A stretch of DNA of 4,776 nt from a virus (lineage: Duplodnaviria > Heunggongvirae > Uroviricota > Caudoviricetes). The stretch lies in IMG/VR virus record IMGVR_UViG_2778261504_000020. One strand, written 5' to 3'. Position numbers: made by a program. Shown in pieces: positions 1 to 3,000 of this stretch; the first letter of the stretch is position 1; each line of letters begins with the position of its first letter.

Positions 1-3000
1 TAAAAACGGTTCTGTGAAAGTGACACGAACCGATCTCCATCGATGTTACTCACCGATCTCCTTCACGGTAATACGCATGGGATATCCGGTGGCTAAGACA
101 TCGTGCGAGGAAATGACAATGGATTATTCACAGTTAAGTGATTTTGAAATTAACGTGGCGGTATTCGAAGCCATTCATAACGGATCGCCGGATTACAAAG
201 AAGGTGAGAATGGCGATATGGTGTTTGTCTCATTTGAGGGAGACATTGTAAACGGAGACGCAGTTGAAGTAGAAGTTGAGCGCGGATCCTTTAACCCATG
301 CGCAAACCCAGCAGACTCATGGCCGATTATTGAAAAATACAGGATTAGCATTATCAATCTCGATGAAGACGAGTGGGGTGCACGCGGTGTGGCCTACTGT
401 AAATCTAAGCGAGCTATACATGAAAATCCCCTTCGCGCCGCCATGATTGTCTTTCTCATGATGCAGAGAATCCAATAATGCTTAGCCCATCCCAATCCCT
501 TCAATACCAGAAAGAAAGCGTCGAGCGAGCTTTAACGTGCGCTAACTGCGGTCAGAAGCTGCATGTGCTGGAAGTTCACGTGTGTGAGCACTGCTGTGCA
601 GAACTGATGAGCGATCCGAATAGCTCAATGTACGAGGAAGAAGACGATGAGTGATTACCTGAAATGGTATCTCTGCCACCGCTGGCTAATTAAGTTTGCT
701 GTAAAAGACTGGATGACAGCGGATGCCAACAAACTTAAGCAAAGAAAGGACTATTACTACGCCAGAATGAAGGAAAACTACTGCTCAATTCGCACTCGCA
801 TATTTATTAAAAAAGACCTTCAGTCAATTCTTCAATTGCGAGGGAAGGTAAATGGCTAACCTACGCAAAGAAGCGCGCGGCAGAGAATGCCAGGTACGTA
901 TTTACGGCGTATGCAATGGCAATCCTGAAACTACAGTTCTGGCACATTACCGGATGGCTGGAATTTGTGGAACGGGGATGAAGCCTGACGACCTGATCGG
1001 CGCATGGGCTTGTAGTGACTGCCACGCGGAGATCGACCGACGCACAAGGATTCTCGACAACAAAGACGCCAGACTTTACCACCTCGAAGGCGTGATCAGG
1101 ACGCAGGCGATACTGCTGAAGGAGGGGAAGATTAAGTCATGAACGAATATCAGTTTGTGCTTCCATACCCGCCGTCGGTGAATACCTACTGGCGAAGACG
1201 GGGAAGCCAATACTACATCAGCGATAAAGGCCAGAAATACCGAAAAGACGTTCAGCAAATCATCCGCCAACTTAAGTTAGACATTTTCACCAAATCACGA
1301 CTCCGCATCAAAGTCATCGCAGACGCTCCAGACTCCCGCCGCCGCGACCTCGACAACATCCTGAAAGGTTTACTCGACTCACTTATCCACGCCGGATTTG
1401 CGGAAGACGACGAGCAATTCGATGACATTCGCGTAATTCGTGGTGTGAAAGTACCAGGCGGACGGCTTGGAATAAAAATCACCGAACTGGAGAACGCATG
1501 AACGCCACAATTCAAACGATACCAGAGCTTCTTATCCAGACACGAGGCAATCAGACCGAAGTGGCGAGGATGCTTTCCTGCGCAAGAGGAACAGTGCTCA
1601 AGTACAACCGAGACAGCAAAGGCGAGCGTCATGTAATAGTTAACGGCGTCCTGATGGTCAAACAGGGCAAGAGGGGAAGACGATGAGACTCGAAAGCGTA
1701 GCTAAATTTCATTCGCCAAAAAGCCCGATGATGAGCGACTCACTACTGGCCACAGTTTATTGGTTTTCGTAACTGAGTCATTTTATTATTTTATTGCAAC
1801 TTTTAATCTTTTATAGTGCGAAATAAATGGAGCTGGCATTCATTTCGCACTTTATGTTTTTGTTGGACTTATGTTATTTTGATTGAATTCAATTCAGTTA
1901 AAAAAAGAAGGTGATTGCTCCATTTATAAATGAATAGTCATCCCCTGTCTTGAATTCTGATGTTACTTTATTAAATGCTAGTGTGAAGGCTACAGGTGCA
2001 TACCCAATTGTTGCGCCAACTTGATATTCATCAACAGTTTTGTTTAGCGATACTGTTGTTTGTTTCGTCTGTATTGTTTTTCCTTCGAGAGTATAGTTGC
2101 GATTGACATCTCGTCTTTCCATACCTGCAAAAATCTTGTATTTGAATCCGCTTGTATCGGACATATGCATTAAACCACGGGGAGCCAGCAGACCAAAGCC
2201 ATTATCCGAATTGAAGGTTTTATCATTACCAATGGCAATGGTTGCGCCATATGCTACATATTGAAATAAGTTTCCAGTAACAGCAGAAACTTCAGGGTAT
2301 AATCCAACATTAGCACCTAAAATATCCATACTTGGTGTCATGGATAGCATCCCTTTTACAGTATAACCGTAGCGATTCTCTATTTGATCATCCCATGCAT
2401 GATATTTTTCTGCCCCAATAATCTCATGAGCTTTATTTTGTACTTTCTGACCGCCTGCGTCGGGGCCAACAACACCTATGTCAGTACCTAATCGATAGCG
2501 AATCCAGTCATTCGCAAGGGAGTTCCATTCAATACCAGTGTGAGTGTATGCACTAAAAGCTCTGTCTCCAGTTACAGCTGTGTTGTGTCTTTTATTACTG
2601 CCTGATGGAGAGTAAATATCTTGCGCAATATGGAGAGATAATTGGCTCGAGTCTGAGATATCGTGGCTATATCCCAGAAATAAGCCTTGTGAGTAATCAT
2701 CTCTGTTTTCATGTTTATTGCCATAAATATCATTAAGTATTGGTTGAAACTTCCCTGCATCATCATTTGCTAATGATAATGCAAGGCTGTTCGCGATAGC
2801 TGAACACGTGGTAAATGACAGAGCAATAAAGACGCCAGCGATGACACTTTTTTTCATATGTTATTGTCTTCCTTTTTTTTGAATGGTGCGCGTATTTTAC
2901 ATACATGAGTTTGTAATACAAGGTGCGTAATCAATATGATGTTTTATAATTGCGTGAGACAATTGATTTATTCGTTTTTTATTGCGGTTTTTATTATCTT

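What the first reader, a model, noticed from the sequence alone, without database searches (positions are those of the whole stretch)
1683..1866. Recombination scar: lambda-type Q start codon and first 20 codons fused to unrelated AT-rich DNA
An ORF overlapping the ninH stop (ATGA) encodes MRLESVAKFHSPKSPMMSDS, matching the start of lambda Q, then diverges and stops after 9 more codons exactly where base composition shifts to AT-rich. This pinpoints a mosaic junction near 1743-1772. An ancestral lambda-type Q was replaced by a module carrying the lpxR-like gene plus a different Q-like gene. The junction is followed by a hairpin with a T-tract that would stop rightward read-through from the early operon, making expression of the new Q dependent on N-type antitermination or its own promoter.
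Basis: partly seen in the sequence, partly recalled or inferred. Interest (0 to 1): 0.6.

Follow-up and report, generated by a model that had tools for sequence, protein, structure and literature searches.

The report
Truncated lambda-type Q gene stub
This is the leftover first 71 bases of a lambda-type late-gene regulator (Q), cut off where a lipid A deacylase gene (lpxR) and a phage-82-type Q were joined in; the scar is real but ordinary, and public records for phage 434 and hundreds of E. coli prophages already annotate it.

Summary
ORF 1683-1772 (29 aa) overlaps the ninH stop in ATGA. Bases 1683-1743 are 61/61 identical to lambda and HK620 Q. Patchy homology continues to about 1753-1758, so the breakpoint lies at 1754-1760. 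G+C then falls from 48% to 28-36%.

The incoming DNA has two parts:
- A 1.43-kb AT-rich lpxR island (1754-3186).
- A phage-82-type module, ylcG-Q (Q is Pfam PF06323, 89% identical to 82 Q). It carries its own scar, the last 4-6 codons of an 82-type rusA at 3182-3199.

The same joint is found in phage 434 and in 620 of 5426 complete E. coli genomes, which is every genome that has this lpxR. These include O157 Sakai Sp3 and EPEC E2348/69 PP2. The joint sits behind two different upstream genes, NinI or NinH, so at least one later crossover fell inside the stub.

GenBank (434, UMO75328.1) and RefSeq pseudogene calls already annotate the stub.

The hairpin at 1815-1851 with a T-rich tail is real. 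It belongs to the island, is only a borderline terminator, and is untested. Phage 434 forms plaques, so lytic transcription must pass it.

Verdict: already known, low interest.

The parts
1498..1686 (+). ninH (62 aa), last intact early-operon gene before the scar; its stop overlaps the start of the Q stub (ATGA)
   Evidence: ORF list. Pfam PF06322 Phage_NinH at E 2e-24. 98.6% DNA identity to HK620 rus-ninH.
1683..1772 (+). 29-aa ORF: the Q stub (codons 1-24 derive from lambda-type Q) read on into island DNA as far as TAA at 1770-1772
   Evidence: The exact peptide is in NCBI as UMO75328.1, 'antiterminator-like protein [Escherichia phage 434]'. PHROG 127 'anti-termination protein Q-like' matches residues 1-24. 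No Pfam hit.
1683..1753 (+). 71-nt remnant of the 5' end of a lambda-type Q gene
   Evidence: 61/61 identity to lambda and HK620 over 1683-1743, then two substitutions (1744, 1747) up to 1753. PGAP annotates the equivalent of 1683-1754 as 'antitermination protein; incomplete; missing C-terminus'.
1754..1760 (.). Left breakpoint zone between the phage Q sequence and the AT-rich island
   Evidence: Alignment. End points of BLAST matches at 1753 and 1758. 11/15 matches over 1744-1758.
1754..3186 (.). AT-rich island (35.7% G+C against 48% on the left and 46% on the right) carrying lpxR and its flanks; a moron of bacterial origin
   Evidence: Composition. Among 50,697 phage records only phage 434 shares it. 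A Citrobacter chromosomal lpxR homologue matches the coding part only. No terminal repeats or insertion-sequence ends.
1815..1851 (.). Stem-loop in the Q stub-lpxR spacer: 14 pairs plus one mismatch on the + strand (-15.4 kcal/mol), a perfect 15 pairs on the - strand (-18.1 kcal/mol), loop 1830-1836
   Evidence: (I1). All substitutions seen in sampled variants fall in the loop.
1852..1866 (+). T-rich tail (TTATGTTTTTGTTGG) after the stem, on the + strand only; candidate weak intrinsic terminator for rightward early transcription
   Evidence: The - strand tail is ATAAAAGATTAAAAG. Not flagged by the consensus scan and not annotated in the phage 434 record.
1898..2857 (-). lpxR, lipid A 3'-O-deacylase (319 aa), transcribed towards the early operon
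   Evidence: Pfam PF09982 at E 7e-40. Annotated as lpxR ECs_0814 in Sakai prophage Sp3. Its regulation by Ler and Pch is described in PMC6393859, citing Ogawa 2018.
2858..3186 (.). 28% G+C spacer upstream of lpxR (promoter and regulatory region of lpxR); right-hand part of the island
   Evidence: Homology with 82-type phages starts only at 3182-3187.
3182..3199 (+). Second scar: the last 4-6 codons and stop of a phage-82-type rusA (..GNE*), with stop 3197-3199 overlapping the ylcG ATG
   Evidence: Alignment with phage 82 X92588 and an E. coli rusA-ylcG-Q prophage.
3196..3318 (+). ylcG-like small gene (orf45 of phage 82)
   Evidence: PGAP 'YlcG family protein'. PHROG 2705.
3333..4022 (+). The functional late antiterminator, Q of the phage 82 type (229 aa)
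   Evidence: Pfam PF06323 at E 1e-91. 89% identity to phage 82 Q. No similarity to lambda Q.
4006..4098 (+). Promoter-like site (4006-4034) and strong terminator (4068-4089 plus T run) downstream of Q: the probable late promoter with its short leader and terminator, the site where the new Q acts
   Evidence: The phage 434 record annotates a terminator at the equivalent place. Weak STnc240-like match at 28 bits, below the threshold of 55. The function is inferred, not tested.

Best explanation
Bases 1683-1753 are a dead stub of a lambda-type Q gene, left at a novel joint.

How it arose. An ancestral lambdoid phage had lambda-type Q directly after its nin genes. It lost everything from Q codon 25 onwards, together with the Q-specific late promoter region. 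In its place it gained two things. The first is a 1.43-kb AT-rich piece of bacterial-type DNA carrying lpxR in the opposite orientation. The second is the ylcG-Q late-control module of a phage-82-type phage, of which only the last few codons of rusA survive at 3182-3199. Both joints lack extended homology, so they look like illegitimate recombination events. That step is inferred.

How it spread. The joint arose once. It then spread by homologous recombination, and at least one crossover fell inside the roughly 71-80-bp stub, because the identical joint sits behind two unrelated upstream genes (NinI or NinH).

What happens in lytic growth. The stub is probably still translated, coupled to ninH through the ATGA overlap, into a functionless 29-aa peptide. 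Early rightward transcription must then pass the hairpin and T tract at 1815-1866. It must also cross about 1.4 kb of untranslated RNA antisense to lpxR before it reaches ylcG-Q. This most likely requires polymerase modified by the phage N protein, as in the lambda nin region.

What happens in lysogens. lpxR is expressed on its own as a moron.
For: Shown:
- 61/61 nt identity to lambda and HK620 Q, followed by patchy homology to 1753-1758.
- Relatives 97-98.6% identical up to 1753 carry a full-length Q. Of 118 phage records with a lambda-type Q, 116 are full length and only the two 434 records are cut at nt 71.
- No other lambda Q or late-promoter remnant exists in the window.
- Island composition is 35.7% G+C against 48% and 46% in the flanks.
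- The right boundary and rusA tail are at 3182-3199.
- The window Q is PF06323 and 89% identical to 82 Q.
- 620 genomes carry the joint and the same number, 620, carry this lpxR flank at 99% identity or more.
- Window and Sakai are identical over 1683-1900 but diverge right up to the ATG.
- Both NinI and NinH contexts occur.
- Phage 434, a plaque-forming phage, carries the same joint (PMC9119081).
- An N-like gene is present in a 99.7%-identical prophage.
- In an EPEC lysogen the RNA-seq baseMean is 2936 for lpxR and 69 for Q (PMC8550237 supplement; gene identity).
- A 434B crossover inside ylcG with DLP12 shows this region recombines readily.
Against: - The order of events cannot be reconstructed (one step or several, and which phage was the recipient). 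No lpxR island with a different left or right neighbour was found in E. coli.
- The two substitutions at 1744 and 1747 could instead mean that the true joint is at 1743/1744 and the rest is microhomology.
- Translation of the stub, termination at the hairpin and the requirement for N were not tested here.
- The hairpin is AU-rich with an interrupted U tract. Neither the scan nor the 434 annotators picked it up.
Confidence: 0.88

Rival explanations
1. The hairpin at 1815-1851 belongs to lpxR. It stabilises or ends the leftward lpxR transcript, and its T-rich + strand tail is incidental. The early operon is not meaningfully terminated there.
For: - The hairpin lies inside the imported island, 47 nt past the lpxR stop.
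- On the lpxR strand the stem is perfect (15 pairs, -18.1 against -15.4 kcal/mol). Its fold z-score is -3.64 against -2.30 on the other strand.
- Sampled variants change only the loop.
- The 434 record annotates no early-operon terminator here.
Against: The - strand tail (AUAAAAGAUUAAAAG) has no U tract, whereas the + strand has 9 U in the first 12 nt. The two functions are also not exclusive, since convergent genes often share a hairpin.
Confidence: 0.4
2. The 29-aa ORF is a maintained small gene with its own function, for example a peptide acting on polymerase or NusA, or an ORF needed for translational coupling and ribosome release after ninH. On this view it is not a dead remnant.
For: - The ORF keeps its start, the ATGA coupling and an in-frame stop.
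- It is 100% conserved across most of the 620 genomes.
- It matches a PHROG family of short proteins that share the first 24 residues (phrog_21867).
Against: - Conservation is the same in the flanking non-coding DNA, so it reflects recent spread rather than selection.
- One variant changes codon 24 (C1753T).
- Only 20-24 residues derive from Q. They lie outside the Pfam domain: residues 113-199 hold the best-scoring PF03589 match in lambda Q.
- The last 5-9 residues are read from island DNA.
Confidence: 0.05
3. Sequencing or assembly artefact, or a simple frameshift in an otherwise intact Q.
For: None beyond the short ORF itself.
Against: - No Q homology exists downstream in any frame.
- The identical joint occurs in 620 independently assembled complete genomes and in the phage 434 and 434B sequences.
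Confidence: 0.01
4. The joint is at 1743/1744. The 9-11 matches over 1744-1758 are a microhomology (ACnGGCCAC) that was already present in the island DNA and guided the illegitimate join. They are not Q sequence with later substitutions.
For: Every intact Q sampled differs from the window at 1744 and 1747 (97.2% over 71 nt in all partial hits). No intact allele carrying T at both sites was seen.
Against: All four differences up to 1756 are G/C-to-A/T changes, as expected for decay in a dead stub. No copy of the island without the stub exists to show its original end.
Confidence: 0.25

Closest known systems
Phage 434 gene CPT_434_64 (UMO75328.1), 'antiterminator-like protein, lambda Q N-terminal fragment' (GenBank OL657226; Feiss et al. 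2022, PMC9119081)
   Same: Identical 29-aa ORF and the same joint. The same lpxR island and the same ylcG and 82-like Q lie downstream (99.3% over 1755-3330).
   Different: In 434 the stub follows NinI (serine/threonine phosphatase), as in lambda, not NinH. 434 also lacks one copy of the 8-bp repeat ATTTTATT at 1780-1795.
RefSeq/PGAP pseudogene 'antitermination protein; incomplete; missing C-terminus' (for example WHU70_RS13625 and E2348C_RS28210), and prophage Sp3 of O157:H7 Sakai
   Same: Same 72-nt feature at the same place next to lpxR.
   Different: None in sequence. Sakai's own annotation leaves the stub unannotated.
Lambda Q (NP_040642, Pfam PF03589) and HK620/HK97/HK022/P22 gene 23 homologues
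   Same: First 20 residues and first 61 nt are identical, with the same ATGA overlap with the preceding nin gene.
   Different: The window lacks residues 25-207, including the region that matches PF03589, and lacks the lambda-type late promoter region.
Phage 82 rus-orf45-Q segment (X92588) and the DLP12 rusA-ylcG-quuD arrangement
   Same: The ylcG-Q block from 3187 onward is 82-87% identical in DNA. Q is 89% identical in protein. The rusA stop / ylcG start overlap is the same.
   Different: Only the last 13-18 nt of rusA remain. The lpxR island replaces the rest.
Phage 434B, a laboratory recombinant between 434 and the DLP12 cryptic prophage
   Same: It shows that this same region swaps late-control modules by crossing over in short shared stretches. 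The 434B crossover lies in ylcG codons 34-39 (PMC9119081).
   Different: 434B arose by homologous exchange with a resident prophage. The Q stub-island joint shows no extended homology.
Lambda nin-region terminators (tR2-tR4), read through by N-modified polymerase (textbook knowledge, not tested here)
   Same: A stem-loop with a T tract lies between the early genes and Q. An N-like gene is present in the same prophage type.
   Different: This hairpin came in with foreign DNA, is AU-rich with an interrupted T tract, and faces a convergent gene. Its activity is unmeasured.

Membership tests
Lambda-type antiterminator Q (Pfam PF03589) | N-terminal sequence of lambda Q | tested here: met
   Residues 1-20 identical. 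61/61 nt identical to lambda and HK620.
Lambda-type antiterminator Q (Pfam PF03589) | Full-length protein of about 207 aa containing the PF03589 domain (best-scoring match at residues 113-199 in lambda Q) | tested here: not met
   The ORF is 29 aa with no Pfam hit, whereas lambda Q scores E 6e-58. There is no downstream Q homology. It is a remnant, not a member.
Gene remnant at a phage mosaic joint | Near-identity to the end of an intact gene, with abrupt loss of homology and a change of composition | tested here: met
Gene remnant at a phage mosaic joint | Close relatives carry the intact gene at the same position | tested here: met
   HK620, HK97, HK022 and many others have rusA-ninH-Q with Q of 624 nt.
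Gene remnant at a phage mosaic joint | The same joint is inherited in independent genomes, so it is not an assembly artefact | tested here: met
   620 complete E. coli genomes plus phage 434 and 434B.
Intrinsic (Rho-independent) terminator | Stable G+C-rich stem-loop | tested here: inconclusive
   14 pairs at -15.4 kcal/mol, but AU-rich with one mismatch. The fold z-score is only -2.3 in context. The consensus scan did not flag it.
Intrinsic (Rho-independent) terminator | U tract directly after the stem on the transcribed strand | tested here: met
   The + strand tail is UUAUGUUUUUGUUGG, interrupted by A and G. The - strand has none.
Intrinsic (Rho-independent) terminator | Transcript 3' ends at the site, or termination measured in vitro or in vivo | not testable with these tools
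   No 3'-end data were available. EPEC RNA-seq gene counts around the site are ambiguous.
Phage moron (Hendrix/Juhala sense) | Extra gene between conserved phage genes, with deviating base composition | tested here: met
   Island at 35.7% G+C against 46-48% in the flanks. It is absent from 116 of 118 phage records with a lambda-type Q and from 82-type rusA-ylcG-Q phages.
Phage moron (Hendrix/Juhala sense) | Expressed from the repressed prophage under its own control | tested here: met
   From the literature rather than my own assay. In an EPEC lysogen the baseMean is 2936 for lpxR and 69 for Q. Ler and Pch activate it (PMC6393859). The promoter itself was not mapped here.
Phage-82-type antiterminator Q (Pfam PF06323) | Full-length match to the family and to phage 82 Q | tested here: met
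   E 1e-91 over 216/220 profile positions. 89% identity over 229 aa.
LpxR lipid A 3'-O-deacylase (Pfam PF09982) | Full-length match to the family | tested here: met
   E 7e-40, residues 10-318. Enzyme activity was not tested here and comes from the literature only.

The most novel reading that the evidence does not exclude
The stub and its neighbouring hairpin may not be inert. In this reading the 71-nt Q stub is kept because it works as a portable homology arm. It lets the lpxR plus 82-type Q cassette cross into any phage that has a lambda-type Q. The convergent lpxR transcript, which has no U tract after its hairpin, reads into the stub and ninH. There it acts as an antisense or collision brake on early-to-late read-through, tying prophage induction to the Ler/Pch virulence regulon. 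This would be a host-controlled analogue of lambda's antisense promoter within Q.
Probability: 0.12. Interest if true: 0.4.

Novelty: already known. Interest (0 to 1): 0.1.

Why it matters
It matters little beyond housekeeping. The scar is a tidy textbook example of how lambdoid phages are assembled. Two truncated genes, the Q stub and the rusA tail, bracket an imported virulence-related gene (lpxR). The short stub still served as a crossover site that moved the cassette between phages with different nin regions.

It is useful for annotation, because the 29-aa ORF should be called a pseudogene fragment rather than a gene. It also matters for anyone studying how lpxR, a lipid A modifier of EHEC and EPEC, travels and is insulated from phage transcription.

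The only open biological question is whether the hairpin and the convergent lpxR transcript affect the timing of late gene expression.

Tried and rejected
1. Second lambda Q or late-promoter remnant. I searched the rest of the window for one that would mark a right-hand homologous crossover. Only chance-level matches appeared.

2. Terminal repeats at the island borders. I looked for inverted or direct repeats and for insertion-sequence ends. None were convincing. The 12-nt repeat at 1727/3157 is at chance level.

3. The Pas sRNA lead. A 2026 preprint links the PasD sRNAs to lpxR and Q neighbourhoods, which raised the idea that the hairpin is an sRNA terminator. By the EPEC coordinates, PasD2 lies between the DUF3927 gene and the esterase gene, outside the window. 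Rfam found nothing at 1773-1897. Rejected.

4. Source of the island. The genome-contig scan returned a single relative, a Citrobacter chromosomal lpxR next to phoPQ. Homology is confined to the coding region, so the donor of the flanks remains unknown.

5. Expression data for termination at the hairpin. EPEC gene counts are 136 for the gene left of lpxR and about 1 for genes further left. This could be lpxR read-through or a multi-mapping artefact, so I left it unresolved.

6. Independent Q truncations. In sequenced phages only the two 434 records are truncated.

7. Literature. No paper in the library discusses the stub itself. It appears only in database annotations.
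Full report
**What is in the sequence.** The window is part of the early-right arm of a lambdoid prophage. On the + strand it runs NinX-like, NinF, a small ORF, ybcO-like (PF07102), rusA, and ninH (1498-1686, PF06322). Next comes a 29-aa ORF at 1683-1772 whose ATG overlaps the ninH stop in ATGA. Its first 20 residues equal those of lambda Q and HK620 Q. At DNA level 1683-1743 is 61/61 identical to both phages.

**Where the homology ends.** Homology does not stop at codon 20. 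Over 1744-1758 the window still matches lambda at 11 of 15 positions (p about 7e-4). BLAST carries the match to 1753 in dozens of phages and to 1758 in one. NCBI's pipeline draws the pseudogene to the equivalent of 1754. I place the breakpoint at 1754-1760. A less likely alternative is a joint at 1743/1744 guided by a microhomology. G+C falls from 0.50 (1651-1750) to 0.31 and then 0.28.

**What was lost and what replaced it.** Relatives that are 97-98.6% identical up to 1753 (HK620, HK97, HK022, the mEp phages) continue with a full 624-nt Q, a late promoter and a Q-utilisation site. The window holds no further trace of lambda Q or its downstream region.

The replacement has two parts.
- The first is an AT-rich island, 1754-3186, with 35.7% G+C against 48% on the left and 46% on the right. 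It carries lpxR on the minus strand (1898-2857, PF09982) between two 28% G+C spacers.
- The second begins at 3182-3187, where homology starts to the rus-orf45-Q segment of phage 82 and to many E. coli rusA-ylcG-Q prophages. The window keeps only the last 4-6 codons of that rusA (..GNE, stop 3197-3199). Its stop overlaps the ylcG start just as in phage 82.

The Q at 3333-4022 is PF06323 and 89% identical to phage 82 Q. It shows no similarity to lambda Q, which is PF03589.

The lpxR island is therefore bracketed by two scars, the Q stub and the rusA tail.

No repeats or insertion-sequence ends mark the island borders. A Citrobacter lpxR homologue (73% identity) sits in the chromosome next to phoPQ and matches the coding part only. 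This fits a bacterial origin for the gene but leaves the donor of the flanks unknown.

**Distribution.** The joint (1683-1900) is present at 80% coverage or more in 620 of 5426 complete E. coli genomes. The lpxR flank alone (1775-2200) is present at 99% identity or more in the same number, 620. The lpxR-ylcG spacer likewise occurs in 620. In E. coli, then, this lpxR apparently always carries both scars.

Carriers include O157:H7 Sakai prophage Sp3 (lpxR = ECs_0814), EDL933, O111, O26, O103, O145, O121 and EPEC E2348/69 prophage PP2. Among 50,697 phage records only phage 434 and its derivative 434B share the island. Of 118 records with a lambda-type Q, 116 are full length and only the two 434 records stop at nt 71. 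The joint is therefore a single lineage.

**Spread through the stub.** The stub follows NinI (serine/threonine phosphatase) in 434, Sakai and most O157 genomes. It follows NinH in the window, in E2348/69 and in several O111 strains. The two contexts are unrelated right up to the ATG, yet identical from 1683 to 1900. Unless the same joint arose twice, at least one homologous crossover must have fallen inside the roughly 71-80-bp stub. This is an inference from the sequences. It agrees with the known mosaic boundary at the Q start; the lambda RefSeq record even carries a recombination feature at 43884-43885. It also agrees with the 434B crossover inside ylcG (PMC9119081).

**Already annotated.**
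- The phage 434 GenBank record lists the identical 29-aa ORF as 'antiterminator-like protein ... lambda Q ... N-terminal fragment'.
- The exact peptide is in NCBI under UMO75328.1.
- RefSeq marks the 72-nt stub as an incomplete antitermination-protein pseudogene in the genomes I opened.
- No paper in the searchable library discusses it.

**The hairpin.** Bases 1815-1851 form a stem-loop.

| Strand | Stem | Free energy | Tail after the stem |
|---|---|---|---|
| + | 14 pairs, one A/C mismatch | -15.4 kcal/mol | UUAUGUUUUUGUUGG |
| - (lpxR) | perfect 15 pairs | -18.1 kcal/mol | AUAAAAGAUUAAAAG |

The T tract thus favours termination of rightward early transcription, while the better stem favours a role at the 3' end of the lpxR message. 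The two roles are compatible.

The stem is AU-rich. The consensus scan missed it, and the 434 annotators marked three other terminators but not this one. In the few variants I retrieved, all substitutions lie in the loop. That is suggestive but rests on too few changes. The hairpin lies inside the imported island, so it arrived with lpxR and was not created by the joint.

**How it most likely works (inferred).** In a lysogen the early operon is repressed and lpxR is transcribed from its own AT-rich upstream region. EPEC RNA-seq gives a baseMean of 2936 for lpxR and 69 for Q (gene identity). Ler and Pch are reported to activate lpxR.

After induction, rightward transcription translates ninH and, by coupling, the 29-aa stub. 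It then meets the hairpin and T tract, followed by about 1.4 kb with no sizeable + strand ORF that runs antisense to lpxR, before reaching ylcG-Q. An untranslated stretch of that length, plus a possible terminator, would normally stop transcription. Polymerase modified by the phage N protein would pass, as in the lambda nin region (textbook knowledge). An N-like gene (PHROG 271, E 9e-34) is present in a prophage 99.7% identical to the window. Phage 434, which has the same joint, forms plaques, so the arrangement allows enough Q. I found no evidence for a separate promoter for ylcG-Q beyond a weak consensus match at 2911-2940.

**Verdict.** The breakpoint and the structure of the incoming DNA needed refinement. 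The terminator idea is plausible but untested. The feature is a routine consequence of lambdoid mosaicism and is already in public annotation, so interest is low.

Noticed in passing
window 3182-3199: A second scar: the last 4-6 codons and stop of a phage-82-type rusA sit directly before ylcG. The window also has its own complete HK97-type rusA at 1139-1501.
   Followed up: yes
window 1780-1795: Tandem duplication of the 8-bp unit ATTTTATT. Phage 434 has a single copy, while Sakai and the other E. coli genomes examined have two.
   Followed up: partly
window 1830-1836: In the variant genomes retrieved (SMN013SH2 and 2014C-4423), every substitution in the Q stub-lpxR spacer falls in the hairpin loop and none in the stem. 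There are too few events for statistics.
   Followed up: partly
window 2686-2693 and about 2116-2130 (minus strand, inside lpxR): RIL-seq supplementary tables for EPEC E2348/69 (PMC8550237) list lpxR mRNA (old tag E2348C_0684) as a partner of two sRNAs. One is the prophage sRNA PasD2 (site CUCACAAG). The other is the core sRNA MgrR (site UUGCAGGUAUGGAAA). Both site sequences are present in the window.
   Followed up: partly
outside the window; L001 about 17118-17415, L013 6658-6829: The pasD2 sRNA gene (EcOnc13 homologue) lies about 2.4 kb downstream in the same prophage type, between the DUF3927 gene and the sialate esterase gene. It is not in the window and is unrelated to the hairpin.
   Followed up: yes
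window 4006-4098: A promoter-like site and a strong terminator lie just after the 82-type Q, with a weak match to Rfam STnc240 (28 bits, threshold 55). This is probably the late promoter with its short leader and terminator, the site where Q acts.
   Followed up: partly
L013 (E2348/69) 2921-3177; PMC8550237 table S2: The gene just left of lpxR (old tag E2348C_0683) has an RNA-seq baseMean of 136, while genes further left have about 1. This may be lpxR read-through past the hairpin or a multi-mapping artefact. It is unresolved.
   Followed up: partly
L006 (Citrobacter sp. ANG330) 3995-4960: A chromosomal lpxR homologue (73% aa identity) sits between purB and a histidine phosphatase on one side and phoP-phoQ on the other. 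It has no phage genes nearby and no homology to the island's flanks.
   Followed up: partly
window 1-78: All the best E. coli genome matches start at window position 78, which suggests another mosaic boundary near the NinE/NinX junction at the left edge of the window.
   Followed up: no
L009 (O145 RM12275-C1), equivalent of window 1753: A C-to-T change at the last Q-derived position (codon 24, Thr to Ile). In this genome PGAP does not annotate the stub at all, which shows that the pseudogene call is fragile.
   Followed up: no
L013 2562-2924 (E2348/69): In E2348/69 PP2, the rusA upstream of ninH carries an internal stop and is annotated as a pseudogene. That prophage is therefore decaying elsewhere as well.
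   Followed up: no
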